Shown here in pieces: positions 41,472 to 60,520 of a DNA stretch of 64,000 bases (position 1 is its first letter; each line of letters opens with the position of its first letter). Origin of the DNA: Clostridia bacterium (lineage in GTDB: Bacteria; Bacillota; Clostridia; Oscillospirales; Acutalibacteraceae). The translations under genes and the position numbers were made by a program. The DNA is taken from contig JAFXFC010000023.1 in NCBI GenBank assembly GCA_017513525.1, forward strand, positions 5,373-69,372. Direction: 5' to 3'. The notes beneath the pieces are model-generated. The model had not been told where the DNA came from. It made no database searches and was given only the letters and a program-made list of their open reading frames with translations.

Positions 41472-43934
41472 TTACAGTACACTTACATCCCAACCGCTGA
41501 AATCTCCGCTGATGCAGGTGATATCGCATTTACCGTCTGTGAATGTAACCTTAGCTAAAATATCAGGCAGACAAAGAGGAAAGTTTATATTTTTATCAAT
41601 GGGATTAAAGGTAAGCTTTTTGTTTTCGAAATCTACTGACATACCCGATACAGCGAGCAGAGTTGTCCAGCTTGACATAGGGCGTGTATAGTGATGACCG
41701 CATTCCCAATGATCCCAGAAATAACCGAATCTTAACTGATTGCTGTGTATTGAACCAACTACGGTGTCGGATACTTCAGTGGCACCCACAGAAAGTGCAA
41801 GAGCCGAGAAGGCATAGCCTATGCCTGTCCAGACAGCAGTTGTCTGACAGTTTTTGTAGGTGTGTATGGTTGTCCTTCTGTTTTCCGGAACAGTAGCATT
41901 TAAAAGACCTTGCTCATTATCAAAATTGTAGTGGAAGATCAAATCAACTACCGCACGGACTCTTTCATCGGGAATATTGCCGCTAAGGCCTGTCATTCGC
42001 AAAAACCATTCTCCGTCAAGCTGATCGGTCATAAGAGATTCATCGGTTTCGTCATTGTTTCTCCAAAGATTATAATACTCGCCGTTCCAGAGCTTTTCTT
42101 CAAGGGATTTTTTGCCCTTTTCGAGGAGAGTGCTCCATTTGTCAAAGCAAGTCCTATCCCCTATTCTGTCGGCGATGATTGTTGCAGCCTTCAAAGAAGC
42201 TAACCAAAGGACAGAAATATATACGGGTGTGCCCGAGAAATTCCATGCATCGTAGGTGTTTCTTTTTGTATTGTAATCGGGCAAACCGTCTTTATCTGTA
42301 TCAAGCTTTTCTATGGCATCCATTGCCCGTTTGACATTATCCCACAGGGAGGTAAGATACTCTCTGTCGCCTGTAAAAAGATAATCGCGAAGCACCATTA
42401 AGACAAACTGTATACTGATATCAACACGGTCAAAGCCGTTATTGGTGCTTTTCATATCAGGTCTGAAGCAGTGATGCACTCTGCCGTCATCTCGCTGGTA
42501 TCGGGCACCCATTTTCATCTGTTTTTTCTGCAAATCGGGGAAAAGACTTATAAGGGAAAATGATGCATGATAGGTTATATCCGTGGTATGAAGTCCGCAA
42601 TAGCCGAGCCCCTCCCACAAGCCAAAATTTCCGTTTTTGAGATAAACGGAGTCCTTTATCAGCTGTGAAAGATTGGATGACCATGCATCAGGATAAATTG
42701 ACGGTAAATCTGTTGAATAAAGAAGCTCCGAAAAACCGACGGCAGACTTAAAAATACGGTCATAGCCTTCCTCAAGAGCTCTGTTTGCATCAAGGGAGCT
42801 TTTGTAAAGATTTTCGTAATAATGTCCGATTCTTTCACCGTCCGCGGCAAAGTGATTGGGGAAATACCATGTAAGAATGAAACGGATATTTTTCTTTTCG
42901 CCGGGGAAAAGCTTCACCTGTGAACAAAGAGCACAGGCACCGAAATCCTCTCCTCTTCTCTTATCCTCATCGCAACCGAAAAATTTGATTTTATCCTCCC
43001 TTGAAGCAGGAAAATCAGGTTTACAGAATCTGATACGGCTGAGTATGGAATCAGCAAAGGGGTACTTTTTATATTCCTCAAACAAGGTATCAAGCTCAGT
43101 GTCGCTGAGCGTTTCGGGATTTTCGGGGATGGCTTTGGGCTTTGTGCCGATCTCACCGTTGGGCAAAAAGCCCTTTTCTCTGAAGCCGAACAGAACGGAT
43201 TCCTGTGTTACACCTAAGTCCGAATCCGAACAAGCTATATATTCCCTCATAAAACGGTAGTAATCAGCCGTGATGTATGACTTTTCTCCGTCACCGTTTA
43301 CCGAAAAACAGAGATTACCGCAAGACGGTGAGTCAGAAAGCACTTCGGGCTCTATATGAACACTGACACCGTCGTCGGTCTTGTGAAGTGAGTTCTTGTT
43401 GCCCTCTTTTTGGTTTGCAAAATTCGGCTCAAGAGTACCTAAAAGGCTTATATTCAGTTCGCTGTCTGTGGGGTTTTCTACGGTAAAATCCATATAGAAG
43501 CCCGGTGTTGACGAAATGTCACTGTTATGCGGCACAAAGGGAGAAACCGCTTTAAGGCTGAGTTTACAAGACAATGCACTGTCAACAAAATTTAAGTCAC
43601 ACATAGGAAATTTGCCGTCAAATTCGATTTTTTCAACAGGCTTATTCCAGGAAAACATACGGTATGTAAAGTCATCAGCATCGGTCTTCATGCCAAGCTT
43701 TCGGACGATAGGCTTACCTTCAGCCTTCTTTTCTCTCACATAGAAAGAAAGTGCACCCGTGCTCCCCTCTCCGTCATCAGCCTTTTCCTCGAAGCAGACC
43801 TTGGTTATTCTCGGCTGGTTTGCAATAAGCCAGCTGTGGAACTCACCATCAGGAAAAAGCTCAACACTGCCGGCACCAATCCCGCCAAGAGCAATACCGC
43901 TTGAATGTTTTTTTGTTGTGGTAATTTTTGGCAT
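41472..43934 (-). CDS. GH116-family beta-glucosidase (GBA2-type glucosylceramidase-like)
   Basis: 820 aa. N-terminal GIALGGIGAGSVELFPDGEFHSWLIANQ and C-terminal DGLPDYNTKRNTYDAWNFSGTPVYISVLWLASL are characteristic of GH116. Confidence 0.85.
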   Translation of the reverse strand: MPKITTTKKHSSGIALGGIGAGSVELFPDGEFHSWLIANQPRITKVCFEEKADDGEGSTGALSFYVREKKAEGKPIVRKLGMKTDADDFTYRMFSWNKPVEKIEFDGKFPMCDLNFVDSALSCKLSLKAVSPFVPHNSDISSTPGFYMDFTVENPTDSELNISLLGTLEPNFANQKEGNKNSLHKTDDGVSVHIEPEVLSDSPSCGNLCFSVNGDGEKSYITADYYRFMREYIACSDSDLGVTQESVLFGFREKGFLPNGEIGTKPKAIPENPETLSDTELDTLFEEYKKYPFADSILSRIRFCKPDFPASREDKIKFFGCDEDKRRGEDFGACALCSQVKLFPGEKKNIRFILTWYFPNHFAADGERIGHYYENLYKSSLDANRALEEGYDRIFKSAVGFSELLYSTDLPSIYPDAWSSNLSQLIKDSVYLKNGNFGLWEGLGYCGLHTTDITYHASFSLISLFPDLQKKQMKMGARYQRDDGRVHHCFRPDMKSTNNGFDRVDISIQFVLMVLRDYLFTGDREYLTSLWDNVKRAMDAIEKLDTDKDGLPDYNTKRNTYDAWNFSGTPVYISVLWLASLKAATIIADRIGDRTCFDKWSTLLEKGKKSLEEKLWNGEYYNLWRNNDETDESLMTDQLDGEWFLRMTGLSGNIPDERVRAVVDLIFHYNFDNEQGLLNATVPENRRTTIHTYKNCQTTAVWTGIGYAFSALALSVGATEVSDTVVGSIHSNQLRFGYFWDHWECGHHYTRPMSSWTTLLAVSGMSVDFENKKLTFNPIDKNINFPLCLPDILAKVTFTDGKCDITCISGDFSGWDVSVL

Positions 43935-43997
43935 AACAAAACCTCCCCATCAGTTATGAATTAAGTATACTGTAAATTTCACAATAATTCAAGCGAC

Positions 43998-44053
43998 AAA
44001 AAAACAGACACATCATAGTGAAAAACTCCAAAATGATGTGTCTGACTTTTTTT
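43998..44053. terminator. Bidirectional terminator downstream of micro-ORF copy 1
   Basis: aaaaaaa CAGACACATCAT ...16-nt loop... ATGATGTGTCTG ac ttttttt. Confidence 0.75.
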
Positions 44054-44086: not shown

Positions 44087-44140
44087 TTACTTGCTTGCTT
44101 CTTCGATAGCAACTGCACAAGCAACTGTCATACCAACCAT
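44087..44140 (-). CDS. Conserved 17-aa micro-ORF, copy 1 (MVGMTVACAVAIEEASK)
   Basis: ATG...TAA with AAGG upstream. An in-frame TAA lies 4 codons upstream of the ATG, so this is not the tail of a longer ORF. Its peptide is identical to copy 2 despite 4 nucleotide differences. Confidence 0.35.
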   Translation of the reverse strand: MVGMTVACAVAIEEASK

Positions 44141-44298
44141 GGGGTTGTTACCTTAAAATATTACCTGTATTCAAGTGTATTTACCCTACTTTTTATGCCA
44201 AAAAACAGCACTTTTCATCGTCTTCTGTATCTTGGTGTATTTTTGTGCTGTAAAGTTTTGTAAAGTTTCATAGGGCGGATTAGTTTGTAAAGTCCGGA
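44087..44298 (-). repeat. Copy 1 of a roughly 210-bp repeat unit (TTTACAA-repeat promoter-like block plus 17-codon micro-ORF)
   Basis: Aligns with 45377-45585 in direct orientation. The conserved blocks are CTTTACAAA...TTTACAAAACTTTACA.CACAAAAATACACCAAGATACA and the micro-ORF. The central part has diverged. Confidence 0.8.
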
Positions 44299-44314
44299 AT
44301 TGAACAATATAGAA

Positions 44315-44602
44315 TCAATCAACAATCTCATACGAAAAAGAATTGAAATTATGTTCTTTGCGAAATTCTACAGTATCATCCAAAACCTCATGCATTAAGG
44401 CAAGCTGTTCAGTAAATTCTTTGGGCATTGTGTGCTCACCTTTTATAATAAGCTTATCAGCATCACATTCACTCCACATCATATCCCAAAATGCATTCCA
44501 ATTCCTTCCGGTATCTTCATCAAAACCAAAAGCATCTCTTATTCTTCTGTGAAGATCATCCCAGTATTTGCATCCGGTTAAATCTAATTCAATGATTTTC
44601 AT
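44315..44602 (-). CDS. Barstar-family ribonuclease inhibitor (immunity protein)
   Basis: MKIIELDLTGCKYWDDLHRRIRDAFGFDEDTGRNWNAFWDMMW matches the barstar pattern (...yyG.N.dAlwD...). AAGGAGG lies 6 nt upstream of the ATG at 44602; the track uses a TTG at 44608. It lies immediately downstream of the barnase-like gene. Confidence 0.8.
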   Translation of the reverse strand: MKIIELDLTGCKYWDDLHRRIRDAFGFDEDTGRNWNAFWDMMWSECDADKLIIKGEHTMPKEFTEQLALMHEVLDDTVEFRKEHNFNSFSYEIVD

Positions 44603-44613
44603 AAACAACCTCC

Positions 44614-45180
44614 TTAAACTATTTCATAGAAAGTTTCATAATGGTCATATGTAACAAAAATCAACCCATCGTTAGACCATACAATTCTTTGTTTATTCCG
44701 TTTTCCTTTTTTGTAATTAATATCAGCTTCATACCAAATTCTGCCGACTGCATCGGGTAAATGTTTATCTTTATTCTTATATATTTCTCCACCAATCATT
44801 TTCCCCGGAACAAAGTTTGATGGCCATTTACCTGATTTCCAACCTTTTTGTTCGGCATCTGTTTTACTGATATAATTGACAGGCAATTGGTTATTATAAA
44901 AAATTGACCAATCAGTCCCTGCAACACCGTCAACAGTTGCAGTACCTGCTGTAATTGTTTCCAAGGGCAAAATCAGACAACGGTCAAAAAAGTGGATGGG
45001 CGGTTTGGGCTTTTTTATATTACCTTTTTCCCAGACTTTACCGTGATTCGATTCACAGTCAAGGCATCGTTTTTCATCGGGAATGCTTTTCCAATATTTA
45101 TAATTTTTACTCGTGCCGAGCTGAGCCGCTAATTTTTCACCATTAGCAGTTGCCTCTAAAACAGCTTTAATTAAACTCAC
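44614..45180 (-). CDS. Toxin: SPP1-gp7/Mu-F domain C-terminal fragment fused to a barnase/RNase Sa-type ribonuclease
   Basis: 188 aa with a GTG start after AAGGAG. The N-terminal part WKSIPDEKRCLDCESNHGKVW...PPIHFFDRCLILP resembles the conserved end of the Phage_Mu_F domain. The C-terminal part GGEIYKNKDKHLPDAVGRIWYEADINYKKGKRNKQRIVWSNDGLIFVTYDHYETFYEI matches microbial guanyl-RNase (barnase family) motifs. Confidence 0.75.
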   Translation of the reverse strand: MSLIKAVLEATANGEKLAAQLGTSKNYKYWKSIPDEKRCLDCESNHGKVWEKGNIKKPKPPIHFFDRCLILPLETITAGTATVDGVAGTDWSIFYNNQLPVNYISKTDAEQKGWKSGKWPSNFVPGKMIGGEIYKNKDKHLPDAVGRIWYEADINYKKGKRNKQRIVWSNDGLIFVTYDHYETFYEIV

Positions 45181-45224
45181 TTTAATCTCCTTGAAAATGA
45201 ATTTTCCTTATGCATAAGAACTTC

Positions 45225-45272
45225 AGAACATTTGTTCGCTTTAATTATATCAATTTTAATTTACATTGTCAA
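45225..45272 (-). promoter_or_regulatory. Consensus sigma-A promoter with an overlapping LexA (Cheo) box, driving the toxin-immunity pair
   Basis: On the minus strand, TTGACA (45267-45272), a 17-nt spacer, then TATAAT (45244-45249). CGAACAAATGTTCT (45225-45238) follows, spanning the predicted start site. It contains a perfect GAAC-N4-GTTC palindrome. Confidence 0.7.
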
Positions 45273-45307
45273 GCCGAATTGTGTCGAGTATACATAAAAA
45301 CTTTTCG

Positions 45308-45342
45308 AAAAAAAATCCCCTGTCCGAATAAACGAACAGGAG
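45308..45342 (-). terminator. Rho-independent terminator downstream of micro-ORF copy 2
   Basis: On the minus strand, CCTGTTCG tttatt CGGACAGG gg followed by a U-run (a run of 8 A at 45308-45315 on the plus strand). Confidence 0.7.
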
Positions 45343-45376
45343 AAATTTACTTTATTATCCGTACAGAATTATATTC

Positions 45377-45430
45377 TTACTTGCTTGCTTCTTCAATAGC
45401 AACAGCACATGCAACAGTCATACCAACCAT
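45377..45430 (-). CDS. Conserved 17-aa micro-ORF, copy 2 (MVGMTVACAVAIEEASK)
   Basis: Same peptide as copy 1. The 4 differences (ACT/ACA, GCA/GCT, GCT/GCA, ATT/ATC) are all third-position synonymous. A GAGG RBS is present. Confidence 0.4.
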   Translation of the reverse strand: MVGMTVACAVAIEEASK

Positions 45431-45585
45431 GGGGTTGTACCTCAGAGCAACACCTGTATTTTGGCATATTTACCACGCCTTTTCTGCCCCTTTACGGCAC
45501 TTTTTATACTCTATTGTATCTTGGTGTATTTTTGTGTTGTAAAGTTTTGTAAAATTTTATGGGGCAGATTATTTTGTAAAGTTTT
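45377..45585 (-). repeat. Copy 2 of the roughly 210-bp repeat unit
   Basis: See copy 1. On the minus strand there is a promoter-like TTACAA-18-TACAAT, then a leader of about 90 nt, then GAGG 9 nt upstream of the micro-ORF ATG. Confidence 0.8.
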
Positions 45586-45634
45586 TTGATAATATAGCAA
45601 AATGCTCACAAAAGAAATTCAGAGTTATATATTA

Positions 45635-46456
45635 TTAAGTTTTAAAAATGATATCATACAGTTGATTTAGTGGATGATCATATGTACTTGCAAACAACCC
45701 TCCATAGGGACTGGATTTATTTTTAGTGTGCTTTTCATACCATGTATTTAATATTTGCGAATCAATAAGCGTGAAATCATTTATAGGAGTTCGATATGCA
45801 ATTTTTAAATAATCAGAGGATGTCTCATATAACGAATGGTTTAATGATCGTTTGGAACGATAAACAGACCAATTAACCTGCCTCAACAACTTAGCATTCA
45901 TAACTTCTTGATATATCCAAGGCGATAATGTATATTCAGATGTTTCATTCATAACATTCTTTATAGATGGAAAAGACTCTTTTGTGTTTAAGAAAAATAT
46001 CACTTCAGAATTATCCATTACCGAATGTATTGCAGTGGAAAGCATAGCGTGTACATGACTCGTAGTAAAGTTTCTTTTTTTGTAATTGTAAGTTTTTGTG
46101 TCTTCCTGATAACAGTATTTTTCATCCAATTGTTTTAACAATTCATCCGCACTACCCCATACCACTTCATCTAAAAACACATCTAAATCAAACTCTTTTT
46201 TCAACCATCCAGTTAAAGCAAAAGCTAAATCAGCATCATTGTGTGAGTGTGAGATAAAAATATCACTTTCAATATTTTTAAACCATGCATTAGATAATTT
46301 TTCGCCATCAATAACTTCATCTGACAGCATAAAATCGCCTAATTCTTCTTTTGCAAGTTTTTTTAATGTATCTTTTTGCTGTTTTCCGATATTTATATAC
46401 TCATCTACACATGAAAAATCTTTCAACCTGATTTGCAAATCAAAAGCGGTAAACAT
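45635..46456 (-). CDS. thsB: TIR-domain protein, ThsB-like
   Basis: 273 aa with SDIFISHSHNDADLAFALTGWLKKEF (TIR beta-A/alpha-A), LDVFLD, EVIFFLNT and SPWIYQEV (the W..E catalytic-Glu region). Confidence 0.7.
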   Translation of the reverse strand: MFTAFDLQIRLKDFSCVDEYINIGKQQKDTLKKLAKEELGDFMLSDEVIDGEKLSNAWFKNIESDIFISHSHNDADLAFALTGWLKKEFDLDVFLDEVVWGSADELLKQLDEKYCYQEDTKTYNYKKRNFTTSHVHAMLSTAIHSVMDNSEVIFFLNTKESFPSIKNVMNETSEYTLSPWIYQEVMNAKLLRQVNWSVYRSKRSLNHSLYETSSDYLKIAYRTPINDFTLIDSQILNTWYEKHTKNKSSPYGGLFASTYDHPLNQLYDIIFKT

Positions 46457-46476
46457 ATAACAGCCCCATCCTTTAT

Positions 46477-47346
46477 TTAATATTTTAGTATTGCAACATC
46501 TGCTTTCTTTGTTTCATGAACAATAATATGTATATTTCCATGGATTTTTTGTTTGTTAATTCTTAATAAAGAAACCATAAAATACAACATATCTTCAGTT
46601 GATCTTGTAGGACGAATAATATGGTCACCAAATACTGGACAATAAAGATCTATGCACTGTCCATGAGCATCGTAGTAATCTATAAGACTCTGCAATGCAA
46701 TAAAATAGTCAAATTCTGTGCTATTTGCTTTTAAATTACTATCAAATTCAGAAACTCCCCACAGATAAAAAATTATTCCATTGGTTTCATTGAGTTCAGC
46801 AATAGTGCCAGAAGAATAACGTTTTAAGTAGCCGCTTTTTTTATTCATAAAATCAATCTCTTTATATTCAGCATTACAATCGGAAAGACACTGTTCAATC
46901 TTCTGATGTAATTCCACTCGATCTTTTTCGGAAGAAATATAATTATTTAACCATTGACCATGTATGCTTTTCTCTGAAATTAGATTGTTTTCACAACTAA
47001 GATCAAAACATCTGTTTACTGGAATTACAATGATTTTTTTATCTTTTCTTCGATTATCAAATCCAAGCTCAATTATATCTCCATATTGAATAAAAATTTC
47101 TTTATCTGTATCTCCAAAGATTGATTTTTTATTTCGTATTAAAACTATTGATGCGGAAACAATAAAAGATAAGATTACTATGCCACTAAAGATTATTATT
47201 TTTAAGGTAACTTTTTGAATTCCAAGTTCATCCCACGAAAAAAAATCAAGCAATATACTGGCCAAAGCAGAAAGGGTACCCCATACCGACACAAAACATT
47301 TAAAAAGAACTTTACCGTTAATCTTTAGACGAGTTAAAAAATTCAT
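46477..47346 (-). CDS. thsA: Two-TM N-terminus plus a Macro-like effector domain, type II ThsA-like
   Basis: 289 aa with two N-terminal TM helices. IFIQYGDIIELGF...KIIVIPVNRCFD then resembles the GDI...(I/V)VxxxN start of Macro domains. It lies 20 nt upstream of the TIR gene. The Macro assignment is from motif memory only. Confidence 0.5.
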   Translation of the reverse strand: MNFLTRLKINGKVLFKCFVSVWGTLSALASILLDFFSWDELGIQKVTLKIIIFSGIVILSFIVSASIVLIRNKKSIFGDTDKEIFIQYGDIIELGFDNRRKDKKIIVIPVNRCFDLSCENNLISEKSIHGQWLNNYISSEKDRVELHQKIEQCLSDCNAEYKEIDFMNKKSGYLKRYSSGTIAELNETNGIIFYLWGVSEFDSNLKANSTEFDYFIALQSLIDYYDAHGQCIDLYCPVFGDHIIRPTRSTEDMLYFMVSLLRINKQKIHGNIHIIVHETKKADVAILKY

Positions 47347-47748
47347 AAAAAAACCTCACAATGACAATATTTCTAATATTATATTACAAAATATGGCAAA
47401 CAACAATATGTTTTATTGCAAATATATTATACTCGCTTATATTTATAAGACTCAGTATAGCAGTTGCCTTTATCACTAAGGTCATCTACACCTGTACTTT
47501 TTTATTAACAAAAATTGGAAGTTTTTAATTAAGAAGATGAATCGTTATTGTACCCATGACAATCTTCTGTCAAAGAAATATATTTTGTAGCAAAAATATA
47601 TAATTTTTTATATGTTTTCAATGATATTAAAAAATTCAGATTTTCGGTTATATATCCTTTCTATCTATCATTATATATATGAATCATTAAAGACGTACGG
47701 AGTTACATCTTTGACTGATTAAATATATATGAAAAGGAAGTAATAACA

Positions 47749-48738
47749 ATGGAAATTGAGAAACTCTTTGAAAATACCCGTGATGCTCTGATTATAGCTT
47801 CACAGTATGGTGAAACGAAAGATGTACTGAAGGTTTGTGTTCAGAAATGTAAAAGCGATCCCGATTATCTTTACAAGAGAACAACCTGCCTTTATGAATC
47901 GTTTGATTATGCTATTCTGAGAGTGGCGAAAGATATTAAATCCGCTGATTGCATCATCTTTGAGGATGAAATTACTGCGAACGAGTTGATGAAATGTTTT
48001 TCGCTTGATGCTAAAAAGGTGTATTTGTTTTTCGAAGATATTGTATCTGAGATTTTGCCTGCAGAAAAAATAGCCCTGTTAAAAGGAAACAAAACCGTTG
48101 ATGATGTTTATGGATTGATTTTTGATGAAATAACTTCGAGCGGCGATATCCCCGAGCTTTTTACAGAGGTTGAAAAATGCCGTAGGACTATCAATGCTCT
48201 GCTTCGATATCATAATCTTCACAGCAATGCTCTTAAGTTAAAGCATAAGCACAGCAGCTACATAGAATATATCAGAGAGTTGCTTAAAAATGATGATAAT
48301 GTTGCAGTGCTGTATTTTGTGAATAAAAGAGGAATAGACAGCCTTTCGGGGGCAAAGCCTGATTCAGATGGTCTTCCCGGAGAGCGATTCTTTGCAACAG
48401 ACTGCAAAAATAATATTTCATCAAAAGAGCTGATTTTGGATTTTCTTGAAAATATAAAAACGGTCATTATTTTTGATGAAAATGAAAAAGAAATAATGGA
48501 ATATCTGAAAGATATTTTTGAAGATAATCCATTTAACTTTGATGTAATCAATCTTTTTAAATTCGCAAATGAAATGTTTGTGAATGTACCGGATGGGCTT
48601 TCTGTGTTGAATTATTACCTTTTGTCTTTTGATGTGTTATATGGTTGTTTCTGGGACAAGTTTGACAGATTAAACGACTATCACACATTACTTCGCTGTA
48701 TGCTCGCACACTATGAAAACATAGCAAAAAAGCTATGA
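47749..48738 (+). CDS. Hypothetical protein, paralog A of an unrecognised family
   Basis: 329 aa with an AGGAAG RBS. It aligns end to end with the 49070-50035 product. No recognisable motif. Confidence 0.8.
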   Translation: MEIEKLFENTRDALIIASQYGETKDVLKVCVQKCKSDPDYLYKRTTCLYESFDYAILRVAKDIKSADCIIFEDEITANELMKCFSLDAKKVYLFFEDIVSEILPAEKIALLKGNKTVDDVYGLIFDEITSSGDIPELFTEVEKCRRTINALLRYHNLHSNALKLKHKHSSYIEYIRELLKNDDNVAVLYFVNKRGIDSLSGAKPDSDGLPGERFFATDCKNNISSKELILDFLENIKTVIIFDENEKEIMEYLKDIFEDNPFNFDVINLFKFANEMFVNVPDGLSVLNYYLLSFDVLYGCFWDKFDRLNDYHTLLRCMLAHYENIAKKL

Positions 48739-48840
48739 TAAAAAACCTGTATGCTTACATAAACGGAGTTCCACCATAGCCATTTTGTCAGTTTTATCCT
48801 TTGTTTTAATTAGTCATAACATATTTATCCTTTGTTTTGT

Positions 48841-48882
48841 GATCCCTGAAGTTTGTGTCGGCTTCAGGGATCGCTTTTTTTT
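48841..48882 (+). terminator. Rho-independent terminator of paralog A
   Basis: GATCCCTGAAG tttgtgtcgg CTTCAGGGATC gc tttttttt. Confidence 0.8.
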
Positions 48883-49069
48883 GCAAATAATGCACAAGAG
48901 TGCGCCGTTTTCACGACGCACTCTTGCTTTGCTGATGGTTATAAAGGAGTTTTTTTGGAGAAATTATGTCAACACGTTAAGGGGCAAATGTTATGTAGAA
49001 AAACATACTTAAAAGATCCATCAGCTTTATCTCCAAGCATGTTACGAGCGAAATTTAAATATGGGTTAA

Positions 49070-50035
49070 TTATTCAGGAAGGTTATCTCTGACTTCTTTG
49101 TATTCTTCAATGAGGTTTTCTAAAATCAGAAGCAAATCCTTGTGCGTTTCGCCTTCAACACAAAAATCAAGCCAGCTTGACTGTAAAAATCTGCGGAAAA
49201 GTAATGATAAATCCGTCGGCGGAAGCTTAAAAATTTGAGAAGAAATATCTTTCAGATCAACTGTTATAAAATTAAATTGAGCATTGTGTTTTTTGTAAAT
49301 AGATTCTAAATATTGCGAAGCTTCATCACCATAACAAACGATGTATTTTATGTTATTGAACACATTCTGTATTCTGTTAAAATAATCATCTGAGGAGTTA
49401 TAATGATATCTACACTCAAAAATGCGGTTTTCTGTTGCTGTAAAGTTAGAGCAAATGTAGAAATTCTCATCATAAGTATTTTCAACAGTAGTAATTGAAG
49501 CAAACATTTCCGGGGATGCGTTTTGCTCAATAATATTATCAAGAATCTGATTTCTTTGTTTTATCGGAAAAACGTCTTTTGTAATGTAACGGAAAAACAG
49601 CAATTCGTTCGTCGCTGCAAGCAGTTGTCGTTGTGTGTCCCGGATATCTTCTTCACCTGCCGTCAGCAAAAAGAAAAGAGCGAATACATCCCGGGTAGTT
49701 GTTAAGTTGTTCTCTTCGAGAGCATATTTAGGAAGTATCTCTTTTGCTAAATCAATAATTGAAATAACGGTTTTCTTCGTTAAGTTAAATTGTTTGATCA
49801 GAATGTCTTTGGTTTCATCTGAATCGGTAACAATGTACTTGTTTTGTTTTAGCATCTTTTTTGCTTTACGGGGATTTTCATTAAGAAACTCCATGTGACT
49901 GTACTTATCCTGAAAGAAAGCATTATCGTTTATTGCTACTTCAATGGAAATAAGTTGTTTTTCTTTGTCTTCGGGATTGTTTATAACGACGAATGCCGCC
50001 TTTCTGCAGTTGATTAATTGTGATATTGATTCCAT
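49070..50035 (-). CDS. Hypothetical protein, paralog B of the same unrecognised family
   Basis: 321 aa with an AAAGGA RBS. It shares blocks with paralog A, for example ILIKQFNLTKKTVISIIDLAKEILP against ELMKCFSLDAKKVYLFFEDIVSEILP. Another is NIKYIVCYGDEASQYLESIY..FNF against NIKTVIIFDENEKEIMEYLKDIF..FNF. Confidence 0.8.
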   Translation of the reverse strand: MESISQLINCRKAAFVVINNPEDKEKQLISIEVAINDNAFFQDKYSHMEFLNENPRKAKKMLKQNKYIVTDSDETKDILIKQFNLTKKTVISIIDLAKEILPKYALEENNLTTTRDVFALFFLLTAGEEDIRDTQRQLLAATNELLFFRYITKDVFPIKQRNQILDNIIEQNASPEMFASITTVENTYDENFYICSNFTATENRIFECRYHYNSSDDYFNRIQNVFNNIKYIVCYGDEASQYLESIYKKHNAQFNFITVDLKDISSQIFKLPPTDLSLLFRRFLQSSWLDFCVEGETHKDLLLILENLIEEYKEVRDNLPE

Positions 50036-50286
50036 ATGTAGTCCTTTCTGATATACTGATTTTACTTGGAGAATTGATTTTCTCCATCCGTCAGTGTTTC
50101 ATTAAGAGTATGACAGATAGGAACATATAACAATTGAACAAATATGTAAAAATACGCTTTTTGTTGTATTTTTTTATTGTTTTTGCACTTAAAATCAACA
50201 CTTTTGCAGTCGAGCATTCAAAGTTATTGACAATTCACGGAATCGGTATTAAAATTAAATAAATTATAGAAAGGCAGGTGGACAAA

Positions 50287-50343
50287 ATGACAATGACTAT
50301 TATTTTACGAAATCGAAGTGCCGTTTTGTCCGTTTGCGATTGA
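50287..50343 (+). CDS. Candidate 18-aa leader peptide (MTMTIILRNRSAVLSVCD)
   Basis: ATG at 50287, preceded by AGGCAGGTGGAcaaa, with a stop at 50341-50343. Its codons 9-12 form one arm of an anti-terminator helix. Confidence 0.35.
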   Translation: MTMTIILRNRSAVLSVCD

Positions 50344-50406
50344 TGTAATACAATCTTTCTGAATTAGCAAGGCATCTTCGATTTTAGGAGGTGCCTTAAA
50401 TTTTTT
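50312..50406 (+). promoter_or_regulatory. Candidate transcription attenuator (mutually exclusive helices plus a U-tract) upstream of the GNAT operon
   Basis: Helix 1 pairs ATCGAAGTGCC (50312-50322) with GGCATCTTCGAT (50371-50382), giving 11 bp with a 1-nt bulge. Helix 2 pairs AAGGCAT (50369-50375) with GTGCCTT (50391-50397) and is followed by AAATTTTTT. The two helices share 50371-50375. Confidence 0.4.
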
Positions 50407-50422
50407 AGAAAGAGGTTGTTTT

Positions 50423-51421
50423 ATGTATTATGTAAAACCATTAGTGGTAGAAGATGTTCATTATGTAGCATCAATAATGTCTGAAACAAGTAACATTGCA
50501 GCTCTCCATTCAACATATCATTCGTTGTCAGAATGGAAATGTATTTTTGATAAAAATGCTTGTGATGCTGATGAAGAAAACTTTTTGATTTGTGTTGATA
50601 ACAATATCTGTGCTTGGTTGAAGCTAAACGGCTTGCTAAACGCCGATACAGCTTGGATATCAATGCTTGTTGTTGCAGATAAGTATAAGCATCAAGGTGT
50701 CGGAAAATTTGCTGTTGAATATGCTTTTGAATATCTGCATTCTAAAGGATTTAATCAAATCGGAGTTCAGACAACAAAAGATAATCTTGCAGCAATAAAT
50801 CTGTATAAGAAATATGGTTTCAATATTGTGGAACTTAAAAAGTTTAAAACAGAAGACGTCACAAAGACAAAAGCTTATCTTATGATGAAAACTCTGGAAC
50901 CAAAGAAATATTCACTTGTGATTCCTGATGAAACTTATAAAGAAGCATATATTCAAATGATGAACAAATGGGAGTCTGTTGAAGATAATATTCAGCCTGA
51001 ATTATTAAGACGGTACAGTAAAAGTTTAGGGGCAAATGTATCCTATTCAAAGTGGCTCGAATGGTGTGAGGATGACAGAACAACAGGTTCTATGTTGTCA
51101 ACAGGTGTTCCTTGTACTCTATACTTTTTTATTGATGATACAAGTGAAATATTAGGTGCAATTGAAATCAATCAGAAGAATACCCACAGAGGTCATCTGC
51201 ATGCAGGAATAGTACCTTGGCACAGAGGCAAGGGGCTTGGCACAAAAATACTTGAATCAGCCTTGGAAATTTGCAGAAATATGGGTATGACAAGTGTTGA
51301 TATTGTTCCGTATAAGACCAACAAATCAGCTATTAAAACTATACTCAAAAACGGCGGAATTTTAATAGATGAATTCTATGAAGACGAAAAATGGTCGCAA
51401 AGATACAGAGTATCATTATAA
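50423..51421 (+). CDS. Tandem double-GNAT N-acetyltransferase
   Basis: 332 aa. It has two acetyl-CoA-binding-like motifs: VVADKYKHQGVGKFAVEYAFEYL and VPWHRGKGLGTKILESALEICRNMG. Confidence 0.8.
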   Translation: MYYVKPLVVEDVHYVASIMSETSNIAALHSTYHSLSEWKCIFDKNACDADEENFLICVDNNICAWLKLNGLLNADTAWISMLVVADKYKHQGVGKFAVEYAFEYLHSKGFNQIGVQTTKDNLAAINLYKKYGFNIVELKKFKTEDVTKTKAYLMMKTLEPKKYSLVIPDETYKEAYIQMMNKWESVEDNIQPELLRRYSKSLGANVSYSKWLEWCEDDRTTGSMLSTGVPCTLYFFIDDTSEILGAIEINQKNTHRGHLHAGIVPWHRGKGLGTKILESALEICRNMGMTSVDIVPYKTNKSAIKTILKNGGILIDEFYEDEKWSQRYRVSL

Positions 51422-51432
51422 AGAGGTGTAAA

Positions 51433-52305
51433 ATGACAAAAACAATAAATGTATCAATAACAAACATACCTTCCATATCGGCAATTTATTATGCACTGTT
51501 ACAGTCGGGGTATGATTACTACGCTATCGGAAGAACACAAGAGCAAATCGAAGCAGTTAAATCATTTTACAAGCCTGAATTATCTTCCTGTTTCTTTTCA
51601 CAAGCAAAGCAAAACACTTGCGAAGCATATTCATATTGGCCGAGAGCAGCTTTATTGGAAACTGCCGTGTTTTATATGGATGCAGATTTAGCTCAGTTTT
51701 CGGATTTTGAATCTTATAAAGCATTTGTAATGACTGCAAGTAATTTGCAAGATATAGAAAGAGATGAAAATTTCTGGTCTTGGATTGCTGATTTCCCTAA
51801 GGAATTGAACAAGATTATAAATAGCGAGTCTTTTAATAGATATTTAATTTGGGAAAACACTTGGATAGAGGAACAAAACAAAGCGAATGCAGTGAATTTA
51901 AAAACTTTTCAGGAAATCATTAAAACTTGTATAAGCCATTACAATGCAAAAATTAGTAATATTAAAATAACATTATCTCCCATTAAATGTGCATATTCAA
52001 GTGATTATCACTTTGTAGACGGACAGTTTATTTTTAGTTCAGGTCAATTTAGTATAGAATCTTTAATACATGAGTTTTTGCATCAGATAGTTCATCCGCA
52101 TGTGTGTAAAAATCAAAATATAATTTTAGTGAACAAAAAAGTTTTTGATTGTATAGATTCTTCATATTACCTTTCCAATAGTGAAAACGGAAAACTTAAT
52201 GCCTTTGAGGAATATTTAGTAAAGGCATTAACAAGAGATTTTATAGACAAAACGCCACCGAATGACTTAGACAAATACATCGTATCTTTATTAAACGAGG
52301 TGTGA
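51433..52305 (+). CDS. Hypothetical protein with an HExxH motif (possible zinc-dependent hydrolase)
   Basis: 290 aa from the ATG at 51433, with RBS AAGAGGTG; the track starts at 51391. HEFLHQIVHPH is present. No family recognised. Confidence 0.6.
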   Translation: MTKTINVSITNIPSISAIYYALLQSGYDYYAIGRTQEQIEAVKSFYKPELSSCFFSQAKQNTCEAYSYWPRAALLETAVFYMDADLAQFSDFESYKAFVMTASNLQDIERDENFWSWIADFPKELNKIINSESFNRYLIWENTWIEEQNKANAVNLKTFQEIIKTCISHYNAKISNIKITLSPIKCAYSSDYHFVDGQFIFSSGQFSIESLIHEFLHQIVHPHVCKNQNIILVNKKVFDCIDSSYYLSNSENGKLNAFEEYLVKALTRDFIDKTPPNDLDKYIVSLLNEV

Positions 52306-52307
52306 AA

Positions 52308-53195
52308 ATGGCAAAACGAGTTGTAGTTGTTCCGTATAACGAACAATGGAAAACAGATTTTGAGATAATCAAGCAACATCTTTTTCCGGCAGTAAAAGAT
52401 TTAATAATCAGCATTGAACATATCGGCAGCACTTCTGTTGAAGGTCTTTCTGCGAAACCTATTATTGACATTGATATTGTTATCAAAGACTATTCTGTAT
52501 TTGATACAGTAGTTGAAAGATTAGCAATTCTCGGCTACATACACGAAGGAAATCTCGGCATAAAAGACAGAGAAGCTTTTAATTATAAAGGCAATATGGA
52601 TTTACCGAAGCATCATTTATATGTTTGTCCGCAATTTTCAGAAGAACTTCAAAGACATATTGCTTTCAGAGATTATCTGAAAAATAATTCCGAAGCCGTA
52701 CTGAAATACAGCAAGGTCAAAGAAGAAGGTGCAAAGTTATTCCCCGACAGCATAGATGATTATATTGCTTATAAATCACCTTTTATTGAAGAGATTTACA
52801 TGGAATGTAAATTAGAAGGATTTATCAAACAGCGGGATATAAAAGTAAGAAATGATGAACATTTGAGGGTTATCAAGTGTTTCTATCTATATCTCCGAAG
52901 CGTTTCAGGCGATGAACGATTACTGCCATCAGTTCTTGAAAAATTACTTGGCATTGATTTGACAAATATTTCAGTTGTTACGGCTTGTTTCAATGGTGTC
53001 AACGATGATAGCAAACCTCCTTGTGACAATGTTGATCTTTATATTAAGTTAAATAACGGCGTAAAAGTTTTTGTTTACGGCAGAAAACAGAGGCTTCCTA
53101 ATGTTCCGAAAGAAAATGAATATGTGATATTTTTTATTTCAGATAATTTGTCAAGTAATATTACTTATATAGAAAGTAATCAAATCATTGTGTGA
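52308..53195 (+). CDS. GrpB-family (nucleotidyltransferase-fold) protein with an extra C-terminal domain of about 120 aa
   Basis: VVVVPYNEQWKTDFEIIKQHL...IEHIGSTSVEGLSAKPIIDIDIV is the GrpB/UPF0157 signature. The ATG at 52308 follows GAGGTG; the track uses a GTG at 52302. Confidence 0.75.
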   Translation: MAKRVVVVPYNEQWKTDFEIIKQHLFPAVKDLIISIEHIGSTSVEGLSAKPIIDIDIVIKDYSVFDTVVERLAILGYIHEGNLGIKDREAFNYKGNMDLPKHHLYVCPQFSEELQRHIAFRDYLKNNSEAVLKYSKVKEEGAKLFPDSIDDYIAYKSPFIEEIYMECKLEGFIKQRDIKVRNDEHLRVIKCFYLYLRSVSGDERLLPSVLEKLLGIDLTNISVVTACFNGVNDDSKPPCDNVDLYIKLNNGVKVFVYGRKQRLPNVPKENEYVIFFISDNLSSNITYIESNQIIV

Positions 53196-53201
53196 CGTCA
53201 G

Positions 53202-53765
53202 GTGAAATGCACTAAAATTTGCACAACGCCTGTTTCGTTACCTAAAGGCTATAGCTTTAAGATGTATGATGTGGGTGATGAAAAATATTGGGCAAAACTT
53301 GAATATGAAATCGGTGATTTTTCATCCGTTGAAGAAGCTGAAATGTATTTCAAAACAAATTATTGCAATCAAATTGATGAACTGAAAAAACGTTGTGTGT
53401 TTGTTGCTGATGCTTATGGCGATGTTGTAGGTTCGTGTATCGCTTGGCACGATTTGAAAGGCAATGATACAGTCGCATCACTTCATTGGCTCGTTGTTTC
53501 CCCTGAACATCAAGGTAAACATATAGGTTTGACTCTTTGTCAAAAGGTAATGGATATATTCAAAGAGCGTGGTGAAACTCCCGTATATATTCATACGCAA
53601 CCGTGGAGTTATAAAGCAATCCTGCTCTATATTAAACTCGGCTTTAAAATTCAGAAAACTGAAACTTTTTCGCATTATGAGAATCAGTACAAAAAAGCCA
53701 TAAAAACTTTAGAAAATCTGCTTTCCGAAAGTCAGTTTAATCAAATTATTTTAAGTTCGGAGTAA
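53202..53765 (+). CDS. GNAT-family N-acetyltransferase
   Basis: 187 aa with LVVSPEHQGKHIGLTLCQKVMDIF. It has a GTG start, and the start position is uncertain. Confidence 0.75.
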   Translation: MKCTKICTTPVSLPKGYSFKMYDVGDEKYWAKLEYEIGDFSSVEEAEMYFKTNYCNQIDELKKRCVFVADAYGDVVGSCIAWHDLKGNDTVASLHWLVVSPEHQGKHIGLTLCQKVMDIFKERGETPVYIHTQPWSYKAILLYIKLGFKIQKTETFSHYENQYKKAIKTLENLLSESQFNQIILSSE

Positions 53766-53784
53766 AACATTCGGAGATACGAAA

Positions 53785-54246
53785 ATGCACATTGTAAGAA
53801 AAATAAAAACAACAGATTTGCTACTTTTAACTCAACTTTTCAATTACAAAGATGTCAATGACATGATTGCCGAAAACACAAGAGATATTGAAGCCGGTAT
53901 TATTGATATTTTCGCTTTGTTTGATGGGGCTAAAATTATCGGTGAATTAAGAGTAAAATACATTAGTGATGATAACCGCTTTACTGAAAAATGTAAACGA
54001 GCATATCTTTATGCTTTTCGTGTTCATCAGAAATATCAAGGCAAGGGATTAGGTAGTTTCTTGCTTGAAAATGTGTTGCTAATTCTTGCAGAAAATGGTT
54101 ATAGAGAATTTACCGTCGGTGTTGAAGATGATAATTTAAGAGCTCGTTATATGTACGAAAAGAACGGCTTTAAAGAACCTATTGCAAGAATAAAAGAAAG
54201 TTATCAGGGTGACAGTTATGAATATGATTTGTTGCTGAAGGCTTAA
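53785..54246 (+). CDS. GNAT-family N-acetyltransferase
   Basis: 153 aa with FRVHQKYQGKGLGSFLLENVL and YEKNGF. Confidence 0.8.
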   Translation: MHIVRKIKTTDLLLLTQLFNYKDVNDMIAENTRDIEAGIIDIFALFDGAKIIGELRVKYISDDNRFTEKCKRAYLYAFRVHQKYQGKGLGSFLLENVLLILAENGYREFTVGVEDDNLRARYMYEKNGFKEPIARIKESYQGDSYEYDLLLKA

Positions 54247-54276
54247 TTTTTTATTCTGACATAAGGAGCGACAATT

Positions 54277-55065
54277 GTGATTTATAGAGTAGATAATTTT
54301 ATAGAAAACAATATAAATCCTATAACAAAAAGTGAATATGATTCCTCTTGGTTAGTATTGGTTCTTTCTTCCGATATGGATACTGCTATGATTGTTGGTG
54401 CGAACAATGGTTGTGCTTATACCATAAAAATCAGTAAACAGCTTCACGATGATTGGAAAATGGCTATCGGTGATTTTATCGGATACTGCGATGCAAATAA
54501 TCTGAACGGCATTTTAGCAATTTCAGAAGATGAATATAATGATGTTCAAAGCTATTACGCAGGACACAATAATAATGAAACAACCTTGCGTGATTATGAA
54601 CCGAAAATTTTAGTGCACAGCACATCAATGGAGAATTGGCATCAGATACAAAAAGACGGTATGCTTAAAAGTTGGAACAGACTTAATATTACTAACAAAG
54701 AGCCTATTGGGAAGCAACTTGGAGACCCTGTTCATTTTAGTGATTACATAATGTTCGGTGGTGGTGTCAGCGGAGAAATCGTTGTTAATTCTAAACAATC
54801 AGGCAAAATTATAATGGATATTAATGCTGAATACAAAACAGGTGCAAGACTTTATTTTGATGCCGAGAAGATTGCAAAAGACGGGTTGCTTGTTCGTGAC
54901 GGTGCACATATGAAAGTCAAGGATTTCTTACCGCTTGAACCGTATCTTATTTGGGTAGCAACTTGGGATAGCATTGGATTGGAAAGTCAATTCTCCACAC
55001 CAAAAATATTTGCAGAATTGTCAAATGATAAGTTCGATGATTTTCAAATTTTCGATAAAACATGA
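54277..55065 (+). CDS. Hypothetical protein; the C-terminal half has weak ADP-ribosyltransferase/Tpt1-like features
   Basis: 262 aa with a GTG start 8 nt after AAGGAG. ILVHSTSMENWHQIQKDGMLKS resembles the H-x-T...G(L/M)L start of H-Y-E ART-fold proteins. This is a very tentative reading. Confidence 0.6.
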   Translation: MIYRVDNFIENNINPITKSEYDSSWLVLVLSSDMDTAMIVGANNGCAYTIKISKQLHDDWKMAIGDFIGYCDANNLNGILAISEDEYNDVQSYYAGHNNNETTLRDYEPKILVHSTSMENWHQIQKDGMLKSWNRLNITNKEPIGKQLGDPVHFSDYIMFGGGVSGEIVVNSKQSGKIIMDINAEYKTGARLYFDAEKIAKDGLLVRDGAHMKVKDFLPLEPYLIWVATWDSIGLESQFSTPKIFAELSNDKFDDFQIFDKT

Positions 55066-55073
55066 GGTAAATT

Positions 55074-55796: not shown

Positions 55797-55865
55797 ACAA
55801 ACAATAAGAGACAAATAAGAGATATATAAGTTTTATATATATTGTAGTAAGTTGAAAAAAATGAG

Positions 55866-55905
55866 AAAAGGGGTGGGAACTGCGCTGCAGTTCTCACCCC
55901 TTTTC
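55866..55905. terminator. Bidirectional terminator between the methyltransferase and Rep genes
   Basis: aaaa GGGGTGGGAACTGC gct GCAGTTCTCACCCC tttt. Confidence 0.8.
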
Positions 55906-57576: not shown

Positions 57577-57779
57577 AAAAATCATCCTTTCTATATTATT
57601 TTTTAGTCAAAAAGCTTTGACATAAATAATATGAAAGAAGCAATATGAAAATAGGTGCAAATTTTTATCAAAAACCGCTTTTTTTGAGAAAAAAATTGAA
57701 AAAAGTTTAAAAAATAGCGAAAATATATGCGTATGAATAAAATAATAGCAGCAAGTCATTTCTCTTGCCGCTATTTTTG

Positions 57780-58598: not shown

Positions 58599-58791
58599 AA
58601 TCTCAGCTCCTTTACAAATTAATTATATCATTCGTAGTATTGAAATAAAATAACATATTTATTGAGATAGGTTGATTTATTCAACCATTGTTTGAGCAAA
58701 ATGGTAATTATATATGAACATTGAATTATACGTACAGAAGTGATATAATAGAATTATTACAGATGCAGAAAAGGATAAAATTTAGCAGCGT

Positions 58792-59253: not shown

Positions 59254-59291
59254 TTATTTTTCTGAAAACTTATTTAATAAGGTGATATTTA

Positions 59292-59867: not shown

Positions 59868-59936
59868 AATCTCCGTATTCAACAGAGGATTACATATGAC
59901 GCATTCTGAAGAGTTCGGTTTTTATGAGGTATATTT

Positions 59937-60473: not shown

Positions 60474-60480
60474 AGTATTT

Positions 60481-60520
60481 TTCCCGACAATACTTAACAC
60501 AGAATGTCGGGAAATCTTTT
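60481..60520 (+). terminator. Rho-independent terminator
   Basis: CCCGACA ...loop... TGTCGGG aaatctttt. Confidence 0.65.

What the first reader, a model, noticed from the sequence alone, without database searches (positions are those of the whole stretch)
44087..45585. Two diverged copies of a roughly 210-bp unit encoding an identical 17-aa peptide, with all substitutions synonymous
Units at 44087-44298 and 45377-45585 lie in the same orientation on the minus strand. Each has the following layout:
- a conserved upstream block with three TTTACAA repeats and a promoter-like TTACAA-18-TACAAT
- a diverged spacer of about 60 nt
- a purine-rich RBS (GAGG or AAGG)
- ATG GTT GGT ATG AC. GTT GC. TGT GC. 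GTT GCT AT. GAA GAA GCA AGC AAG TAA, encoding MVGMTVACAVAIEEASK
- a copy-specific intrinsic terminator

The two ORF copies differ at four positions, and all four are third-position synonymous changes. The flanking spacer has diverged heavily. This is the signature of selection on the peptide.

In-frame stops lie 4 codons (copy 1) and 13 codons (copy 2) upstream, so these are not tails of larger genes. The two copies bracket the barnase/barstar cassette. Each sits directly upstream of an unrelated gene: GH116 for copy 1 and the toxin for copy 2.

Possible explanations include a secreted or signalling micro-peptide, a small membrane-active peptide, a regulatory upstream ORF, or recombination sites that mobilised the toxin cassette.
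Basis: seen in the sequence. Interest (0 to 1): 0.6.

Follow-up and report, generated by a model that had tools for sequence, protein, structure and literature searches.

The report
Attachment-site scars of integrated mobile elements
The two "micro-peptide genes" are the duplicated tail of a normal 332-residue gene, left at the junctions where two mobile elements inserted one after the other, so this is ordinary mobile-element biology and not a new peptide.

Summary
Two about 210-bp direct copies lie on the minus strand, and both contain an ORF reading MVGMTVACAVAIEEASK with four synonymous differences.

The 17 residues are the C-terminus of a full 332-aa GGGtGRT (PF14057) gene on another contig of the same genome. 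Next to that gene lie a terminator, a TTTACAA pair, a tyrosine integrase and an excisionase-like HTH. In a same-genus relative (G005) the GGGtGRT gene runs straight into the GH116 gene, which is the empty site. In another relative (G063) one contig holds the whole 15-kb element between the gene end and an arm+core copy next to GH116.

The window copies are therefore attR-type junctions: an element arm carrying TTTACAA repeats, plus a core that copies the target gene's 3' end. They sit in tandem:
- a mobilizable island of about 21 kb with a MobV relaxase and defence cargo;
- a 1.29-kb integrase-less barnase/barstar unit, which fits the definition of a cis-mobilizable element (CIME).

The synonymous-only differences are the normal codon variation of real GGGtGRT genes. 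Orphan copies in relatives show a lost ATG, frameshifts and amino-acid changes.

This is a new member of a known kind, of low to moderate interest.

The parts
44087..44152 (-). Core of copy 1, the attR next to the host flank. It is 66 nt, GGTAACAACCCC + ATG...TAA, and copies the last 21 codons plus stop of the GGGtGRT gene.
   Evidence: It is 93% identical to the gene end at G000:C11:2330-2386, and the homology starts at GGTAAC.
44153..44298 (-). Element-side arm of copy 1, belonging to the barnase/barstar mini-element. It carries ACTTTACAA, then the pair TTTACAAAACTTTACAG, then conserved blocks CACAAAAATACACCAAGATACA, GAAAAGTGCTG..GGCA, GGTAAATA and AATACAGGT.
   Evidence: aligned with the other full arm-bearing copies; the repeat pair is nearly unique to the att sites in the genome.
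43997..44043 (-). Hairpin plus T-run after copy 1 (AGACACATCAT / ATGATGTGTCT, then GTTTTTTT). Read as the host-side terminator of the original GGGtGRT gene.
   Evidence: Read directly. The homologous stretch sits upstream of GH116 in relatives (query positions 93-150). The terminator scan did not list it because the loop exceeds 8 nt.
45377..45441 (-). Core of copy 2, the internal hybrid att site (attI) between the large island and the mini-element. It has a 1-nt deletion in GGT-ACAACCCC.
45442..45585 (-). Element-side arm of copy 2, the distal arm of the large mobilizable island, with three TTTACAA repeats.
45306..45343 (-). Intrinsic terminator carried by the mini-element just after the copy 2 core. 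It resembles the native GGGtGRT terminator of relative G005.
   Evidence: 11-bp stem plus T-run; the G005 sequence ctgtacggata...ggcaggggattttttt.
44614..45180 (-). Barnase-type ribonuclease toxin with a MuF-like N-terminal fragment. Cargo of the mini-element.
   Evidence: PF00545 at 1.4e-11, and a weak PF04233 match.
44315..44608 (-). Barstar immunity gene, cargo of the mini-element. Its stop codon lies 51 nt before the arm repeat pair in every cassette examined.
   Evidence: PF01337, 1.5e-14; constant 51-nt spacing in G016, G060 x2, G048, G009 and the window.
44153..45441 (-). One 1.29-kb integrase-less unit (CIME-like): core tail, terminator, promoter, barnase, barstar, arm.
   Evidence: The same unit occurs in G060 (two in tandem), G016 and G048. 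Variants that lack the barnase gene occur in G057 and G009.
45442..64000 (-). Distal part of the large integrative mobilizable island. It carries a Thoeris-like pair, GNAT and methyltransferase genes, an AAA_21/RloB pair and a MobV relaxase at 62766-63653. It continues to the end of contig C19 and, by inference, onto C11:1-2319, which holds the excisionase-like HTH, the integrase and the P' arm.
   Evidence: Pfam; collinear with the single-contig element of G063; integrase and HTH_17 on C11.
41472..43934 (-). GH116 glycosidase gene, the original right-hand neighbour of the GGGtGRT gene (host flank).
   Evidence: PF04685, PF12215. Searches show GGGtGRT, terminator and GH116 contiguous in G005.

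Best explanation
The two 210-bp units are attR-type junctions of site-specific integrative elements. These elements target the 3' end of a housekeeping-type GGGtGRT gene (PF14057).

**How each unit is built.** Each unit is an element-borne arm of about 145 nt plus a 66-nt core. The arm carries ACTTTACAA repeats, which I infer to be arm-type binding sites of the element's tyrosine integrase. The core duplicates the last 21 codons and stop of the target gene. The element carries its own copy of the gene tail, so integration rebuilds an intact gene at attL and pushes the previous tail to the far end of the element.

**What happened here.** Two elements accreted in tandem. In gene orientation the order is:
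1. GGGtGRT gene (contig C11), ending in an element-type tail
2. terminator and a TTTACAA pair
3. integrase and excisionase-like HTH
4. contig break
5. MobV relaxase and defence or other cargo, about 21 kb in all
6. arm and core (copy 2)
7. terminator, barnase, barstar
8. arm and core (copy 1)
9. host terminator and GH116

The 1.29-kb barnase/barstar unit has att sites on both sides but no integrase or transfer genes. It is therefore CIME-like and could only move using the neighbour's integrase.

**Why the differences are synonymous.** Both ORF copies descend from functional gene tails, which are under purifying selection as part of the 332-aa protein.

**Shown versus inferred.** Shown: the homology to the gene end, the adjacent integrase, the empty site, the complete element in a relative, the decay of orphan copies, and the recurrence of the repeats next to related integrases. 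Inferred: that the integrase binds TTTACAA, the position of the crossover (within AACCCCATGGTTGGTATGACTGTTGCATGTGC), the adjacency of C11 and C19, the order of the integrations, and any present-day mobility.
For: 1. **Third copy in the genome.** A third copy of the ORF in the same genome is the end of a 332-aa ORF...GAGNNPMVGMTVACAVAIEEASK*. It matches PF14057 GGGtGRT at E 4.6e-197 over the full profile.
2. **Integrase next to it.** Directly downstream lie a terminator, ACTTTACAAAACTTTACAA, and a convergent 492-aa tyrosine integrase (PF00589 at 1.2e-21, with SAM-like and central domains). An HTH_17 excisionase-like gene follows.
3. **Empty site.** In same-genus genome G005 the left flank (an unnamed upstream ORF plus GGGtGRT), a terminator and GH116 are contiguous. 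The stop-to-start gap is 167 nt.
4. **Complete element.** G063 has it on one contig: gene, terminator, TTTACAA pair, integrase (95% identical), MobV, cargo, a 3xTTTACAA arm, core, GH116. The attL-attR distance is 15.2 kb. It is collinear with C11 (reverse) and then C19 (reverse) of this genome.
5. **Same tail in real genes.** All 17 full-length genes sampled in the genus end in the same 17 residues (one reads EEACK). Their codon choices vary at the same sites where the two copies differ: ACA/ACT/ACC, GCT/GCA, GCA/GCT, ATC/ATT.
6. **Element-borne tails.** The tail GCTTCTAAATAA (same amino acids, Ser codon AGC changed to TCT) occurs only in genes that are followed by the TTTACAA pair (L003, L075, L065).
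7. **Orphan copies decay.** G009 has lost the ATG, G048 has lost the ATG and has an indel, both G016 copies share a 1-nt frameshift, and G063 has A>S and S>N changes.
8. **The repeat pair is specific.** TTTACAR-N3-TTTACAR occurs 4 times in 2.59 Mb, and 3 of these are the att sites. The same pair lies beyond the 3' end of the integrase match in 8 of 10 loci encoding 55-95% identical integrases in Acutalibacteraceae and other Clostridia genomes. In 6 of the 10 a GGGtGRT gene converges on the integrase.
9. **Cargo fits a mobilizable island.** It has a Mob_Pre relaxase and no conjugation-machinery genes among the annotated ORFs.
Against: - No direct evidence of excision or of a circular form.
- All 7 public contigs that carry the exact barnase protein show the same arrangement.
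- The 1311-bp Logan contig that runs from core to core is explained by shared k-mers.
- The C11-C19 junction is not bridged by any contig. About 560 nt at the two contig ends have no counterpart in G063.
- The N-terminal arm-binding domain of the integrase scores below threshold (PF14657, E 0.07), so the arm-site assignment rests on repeat architecture and co-occurrence only.
- About half of the orphan copies still keep an intact ORF. That could reflect constraint as recombination substrates or recent origin, but it does not exclude translation.
Confidence: 0.93

Rival explanations
1. Free-standing micro-peptide genes. Each unit would be a promoter-RBS-ORF-terminator module making the 17-aa peptide MVGMTVACAVAIEEASK, a signalling or membrane-active peptide kept by selection on the peptide itself.
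For: Both window copies have an ATG, an intact frame, a stop and a downstream terminator, and they differ only synonymously. Five of the 10 orphan copies in the genus keep the ORF unchanged.
Against: - The peptide is the tail of a 332-aa GGGtGRT protein, and its codon variation is that of the real genes.
- The supposed RBS is part of the gene homology.
- Orphans with a lost ATG, frameshifts or substitutions exist in G009, G048, G016 and G063.
- The supposed promoter is not conserved among copies and is not called by the scan.
Confidence: 0.03
2. A regulatory leader (upstream ORF or attenuator) or a structured small RNA that controls the downstream gene, the toxin for copy 2 and GH116 for copy 1.
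For: Each unit sits directly upstream of a gene, and each ends with a hairpin plus T-run.
Against: - No Rfam family matches the units at E up to 1.
- The folding energy of the units is not distinguishable from shuffles, with z between -0.35 and -1.3.
- In the empty-site relative, GH116 is preceded by the full gene and its terminator with no arm at all.
- The same arm precedes unrelated genes in different genomes.
Confidence: 0.02
3. Segmental duplication by homologous or replication-slippage events, unrelated to site-specific recombination. Under this view the gene-tail fragments are pseudogene debris.
For: Tandem direct repeats can arise by unequal crossing-over. Some relatives carry partial arms, for example the remnant between the two barstar genes of G048.
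Against: - The fragment boundary is the same (GGTAAC) in every arm-bearing copy across species.
- It is always joined to the same conserved arm.
- A tyrosine integrase with matching repeats sits at the other junction.
- A clean empty site exists.
- Later unequal recombination between att copies probably does reshuffle the cassettes, but it does not explain their origin.
Confidence: 0.02

Closest known systems
Tandem accretion of an integrative element with a cis-mobilizable element (CIME). The model case is the ICESt1/ICESt3-related elements at the 3' end of fda in Streptococcus thermophilus (Pavlovic et al. 2004; Bellanger et al. 2011, as cited in PMC5704250).
   Same: - Integration into the 3' end of a protein-coding gene, with the element supplying a replacement tail.
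- An attL - element - attI - decayed element - attR array.
- The small unit keeps att sites but has no integrase or transfer genes, which is the CIME definition in PMC5704250.
   Different: - The target gene (GGGtGRT) and the host (Acutalibacteraceae gut MAGs) differ from the model case.
- The large partner is a MobV-type mobilizable element, not a conjugative one.
- The small unit is only 1.29 kb, carries just a barnase/barstar pair, and recurs as tandem cassettes in several species.
- No excision or cis-mobilization has been shown.
Integrative and mobilizable elements (IMEs) of Firmicutes with a tyrosine integrase and a MobV relaxase (review PMC5704250).
   Same: Tyrosine integrase, excisionase-like HTH, a Mob_Pre relaxase, no conjugation machinery seen, variable cargo that includes defence genes, and frequent tandem arrays with decayed elements.
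   Different: I found no report of GGGtGRT as a target. The 13 papers that contain the word use it only as a protein name, judged from the 10 titles and abstracts listed. Transfer was not tested.
Lambda-type attP organisation: a core flanked by arm-type integrase sites.
   Same: Direct 9-nt repeats occur on both sides of the core, three on one arm and two on the other. They are co-conserved with the integrase family.
   Different: Binding has not been demonstrated. The N-terminal arm-binding domain match is sub-threshold.

Membership tests
att junction of a tyrosine-recombinase integrative element inserted in a gene's 3' end | The direct repeat at the element ends equals the 3' end of the target gene. 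| tested here: met
   The cores at 44087-44152 and 45377-45441 are 92-93% identical to the end of the GGGtGRT gene on C11.
att junction of a tyrosine-recombinase integrative element inserted in a gene's 3' end | An integrase gene lies next to one junction. | tested here: met
   A 492-aa PF00589 integrase is convergent with the GGGtGRT gene, about 195 nt from its stop.
att junction of a tyrosine-recombinase integrative element inserted in a gene's 3' end | Related genomes have an unoccupied site with the two flanks contiguous. | tested here: met
   In G005, GGGtGRT, its terminator and GH116 lie on one contig.
att junction of a tyrosine-recombinase integrative element inserted in a gene's 3' end | Excision to a circular attP form and a restored attB. 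| not testable with these tools
Contig look-ups gave no informative junction.
Integrative and mobilizable element (IME) | Own integrase plus relaxase, but no conjugative pore or coupling machinery. | tested here: inconclusive
   Integrase and Mob_Pre relaxase are present. No T4SS family was found among the annotated ORFs. However, the element spans an unbridged contig break.
Cis-mobilizable element (CIME) | Flanked by attL- and attR-type sites and lacking integration and transfer genes. | tested here: met
   The 1.29-kb unit between the two cores holds only barnase and barstar. The same unit recurs in relatives.
Cis-mobilizable element (CIME) | Moves in cis with, or through the integrase of, a neighbouring element. 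| not testable with these tools
   No reads were available. The only hint is that the cassette is 88% identical between G000 and G016, against 79.5% for the adjacent GH116 start.
Independent small-protein gene | The ORF is intact and under purifying selection in all copies, independent of any larger gene. | tested here: not met
   The ORF is the tail of a 332-aa gene. Five of the 10 orphan copies are broken or changed.
Known structured RNA (Rfam) | A match to a curated covariance model. | tested here: not met
   There is no match over the units at E up to 1. The three weak hits nearby are terminator-like and fall below gathering scores.

The most novel reading that the evidence does not exclude
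The 1.29-kb units (gene tail, terminator, promoter, barnase, barstar, arm) would not be mere debris of a decayed island. They would be a family of minimal, integrase-less toxin/immunity cassettes, each with its own attP-like arm, which related integrases capture, stack and exchange at the GGGtGRT 3' end. That would be an integron-like cassette array built on an arm-dependent tyrosine integrase. It would explain three observations:
- tandem cassettes and orphan barstar genes in several species;
- the invariant 51-nt barstar-arm junction;
- the cassette being more similar between species than the flanking host gene.
Probability: 0.2. Interest if true: 0.55.

Novelty: new member of a known kind. 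Interest (0 to 1): 0.22.

Why it matters
- It removes a false lead. There is no new micro-peptide here.
- It fixes the boundaries of the defence-rich island that fills much of this window. The right end is at 45441/45585. The left end is at the GGGtGRT gene on contig C11.
- It identifies the GGGtGRT 3' end as a recurrent integration hot spot in this Acutalibacteraceae genus. That helps delimit islands and cargo in other gut MAGs.
- It shows why 'all substitutions synonymous' in a short duplicated ORF is expected for att sites that copy a gene tail. This is a useful caution for scans of this kind.
- The small att-flanked barnase/barstar cassettes are a modestly interesting side product.

Tried and rejected
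- **Rfam.** A scan of 40-50 kb found nothing over the units.
- **RNA structure.** The consensus fold is weak (-13.8 kcal/mol) and single-sequence z-scores are -0.35 to -1.3, so an RNA-element reading was rejected.
- **Sequencing runs.** I tried to find runs in which to look for excision joints or circles.
- **Public contigs with the exact barnase.** All show the same arrangement. A 1311-bp Logan contig spanning core to core looked like a possible circle, but its ends coincide with k-mers shared with the gene end or with other species' genes, so it is not evidence.
- **Public contigs with the exact integrase.** I looked for one that bridges C11 and C19. Only a 2.3-kb contig was shown.
- **Promoter reading of the arm.** It is not conserved and was not called by the scan.
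- **Literature search for GGGtGRT as an integration target.** Only proteomics and annotation mentions came back.
Full report
**1. The observation**

On the minus strand, the units at 44087-44298 and 45377-45585 align at 82-83% identity. Each has three parts:
- a well-conserved upstream block with ACTTTACAA repeats;
- a less conserved middle;
- a 54-nt ORF reading MVGMTVACAVAIEEASK in both.

The two ORFs differ at four third-codon positions. The degenerate back-translation matches only these two places in the window, against 0 expected in shuffles. In-frame stops lie 4 and 13 codons upstream. Copy 2 is followed by a clear intrinsic terminator. Copy 1 is followed by an 11-bp hairpin with a long loop and a T-run. 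The description is therefore accurate, apart from three details:
- Copy 1 has TTTACAG as its third repeat.
- The 'promoter' exists only in copy 2.
- The 'RBS' is reinterpreted in section 2.

**2. What the ORF really is**

A search of the whole assembly with copy 1 found a third copy of the ORF part on contig C11, 93% identical. There it is the end of a 332-aa ORF...GAGNNPMVGMTVACAVAIEEASK*. That ORF is a full-length GGGtGRT protein (PF14057, E 4.6e-197, profile positions 1-327 of 327).

Homology between the window copies and this gene begins at GGTAACAACCCC, 12 nt before the 'start codon'. The purine-rich 'RBS' is therefore simply the codons for Gly-Asn of the parent gene.

In gene orientation, the features downstream of the C11 gene are:
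- a hairpin terminator;
- ACTTTACAAAACTTTACAA;
- a convergent 492-aa tyrosine integrase (PF00589 at 1.2e-21, plus SAM-like and central domains);
- an 81-aa HTH_17 excisionase-like protein;
- the end of the contig.

**3. Comparative evidence**

*Empty site.* In same-genus genome G005, the unnamed upstream ORF, the GGGtGRT gene, a terminator and the GH116 gene are contiguous. This joins the left flank found on C11 to the right flank found in the window.

*Complete element.* Genome G063 carries a whole element on one contig, 15.2 kb between the cores. Its order is:
1. GGGtGRT
2. terminator
3. TTTACAA pair
4. integrase (95% identical)
5. MobV relaxase
6. cargo
7. arm with three TTTACAA repeats
8. 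core
9. GH116

This element is collinear first with C11 (reverse) and then with the end of C19 (reverse) of the present genome. The window copies are therefore the far junctions of an island whose near junction is on C11. The junction of the two contigs is inferred and is not bridged.

**4. Why the differences are synonymous**

Seventeen full-length GGGtGRT genes of the genus end in the same 17 residues, with one exception reading EEACK. They vary in codon choice at exactly the positions where the two copies differ. The copies are former gene tails, so the differences between them are the ordinary silent polymorphism of a conserved protein.

The tail now attached to the C11 gene (ATAGAGGAAGCTTCTAAATAA) encodes the same residues with different codons, including Ser AGC changed to TCT. 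This variant occurs only in genes that are followed by the TTTACAA pair: G000, G063 and G020. That is what is expected if the element brings its own tail and the crossover lies upstream of it. Comparing the three sites in this genome places the crossover within AACCCCATGGTTGGTATGACTGTTGCATGTGC. This placement is an inference.

**5. The orphans are not maintained as ORFs**

Ten arm-bearing orphan copies were collected from six genomes:
- G009 reads CCCCAGGCTTCAATGAC, so the ATG is gone.
- G048 has lost the ATG and carries an indel.
- Both G016 copies share a 1-nt deletion that shifts the frame.
- G063 reads EESNK.
- The other five, including the two window copies, keep the ORF unchanged.

**6. 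The arms**

The upstream block is the best-conserved part across copies: ACTTTACAA, then about 16 nt, then AAACTTTACAAAACTTTACAACACAAAAATACACCAAGATACA, with further blocks after it.

The pair TTTACAR-N3-TTTACAR occurs four times in the 2.59-Mb genome, and three of these are the att sites. Ten loci in Acutalibacteraceae and other Clostridia genomes encode integrases 55-95% identical to this one. Eight of them show the same 10-nt-spaced pair beyond the 3' end of the integrase match, and in six a GGGtGRT gene converges on the integrase.

I read the repeats as arm-type integrase sites, three on one arm and two on the other. This is an inference. The integrase's N-terminal match to an arm-binding domain is sub-threshold (E 0.07).

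**7. The tandem structure**

The large element matches the description of an integrative mobilizable element. The region from 45442 to the window end carries:
- a Thoeris-like ThsA-Macro gene with a TIR-like neighbour;
- GNAT, GrpB and methyltransferase genes;
- HD proteins;
- an AAA_21/RloB pair;
- a Mob_Pre relaxase.

No conjugation genes were detected.

Between copy 2 and copy 1 lie only a terminator, a consensus promoter, a barnase-type toxin (PF00545) and barstar (PF01337). This 1.29-kb unit has att sites on both sides and no integrase, which is the definition of a CIME in PMC5704250.

The same unit recurs in relatives:

| Genome | Arrangement |
|---|---|
| G048 | Directly after the GGGtGRT gene, with an extra orphan barstar |
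| G060 | Two units in tandem |
| G016 | Barnase with two barstar genes |
| G057 | Barstar genes only |
| G009 | One barstar gene before the arm, no barnase found |

The barstar stop lies 51 nt before the arm pair in every case where the pair is found.

The cassette is 88% identical between G000 and G016, whereas the adjacent GH116 start is 79.5% identical. This is a weak hint of exchange rather than pure vertical descent.

The terminator carried by the unit resembles the native terminator of G005. This fits element-borne tails having been copied from host genes.

**8. Rivals**

- *Free-standing peptide.* Rejected on the evidence in sections 2, 4 and 5.
- *Leader or RNA element.* There is no Rfam match and no folding signal. 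The empty-site genome has GH116 with no arm in front of it.
- *Non-site-specific duplication.* This does not explain the fixed boundary, the fixed arm or the integrase. Later unequal recombination among att copies probably does reshuffle cassettes, as the partial arm in G048 suggests.

**9. What could not be done**

Contig look-ups gave no strain lacking the elements. A 1311-bp Logan contig running from core to core is explained by shared k-mers.

**10. Verdict**

The micro-peptide interpretation is refuted.

The feature is a set of attachment-site junctions from tandem accretion of a mobilizable island and a CIME-like barnase/barstar unit at the 3' end of a GGGtGRT gene. It is a new member of a known kind.

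Earlier notes of this scan had already called the 55.9-63.7 kb region an integrated mobilizable element (e1-3898845, e1-3898841). This report supplies the element's ends and its target.

Noticed in passing
G060:C3 (L076), G016:C91 (L079), G048:C67 (L078), G057:C42 (L077), G009:C245 (L051): Between the GGGtGRT gene and GH116, several species of the genus carry arrays of barnase/barstar cassettes and orphan barstar genes. The barstar proteins are 53-92% identical to the window's. Most arrays are punctuated by the same arm+core, and the barstar-arm spacing is a fixed 51 nt. It looks like a toxin/immunity cassette array at an integration hot spot.
   Followed up: partly
G015:C24:23417-23482 (L054 about 2675): A second GGGtGRT tail fragment with 36 in-frame gene codons upstream and no TTTACAA arm, about 5.4 kb before GH116. 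A different element type, with a longer duplicated segment, appears to use the same target gene.
   Followed up: no
G020:C177 (L065 648-1203): The GGGtGRT gene has the element-type tail (GCTTCTAAATAA) and the TTTACAA pair, yet GH116 starts only about 500 nt downstream. This may be the scar of a nearly completely deleted element.
   Followed up: no
window 45244-45272 (-): A perfect TTGACA-17-TATAAT promoter with a TG extension lies upstream of the barnase gene, inside the mini-element. Another first-stage note proposes a LexA box just downstream of it. I did not test that.
   Followed up: no
window 45635-47346 (-): A ThsA-Macro protein (PF20016, 5.9e-33) lies next to a 273-aa protein with only a weak TIR_2 match (E 0.018). 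This Thoeris-like pair is the last cargo before the island's distal arm.
   Followed up: partly
G000:C11:157-345 versus G063 (L075 3500-3692 and 4109-4299): A stretch of about 190 bp upstream of the excisionase-like gene is present twice in the G063 element. A repeat here may be why the assembly of the present genome breaks between C11 and C19.
   Followed up: no
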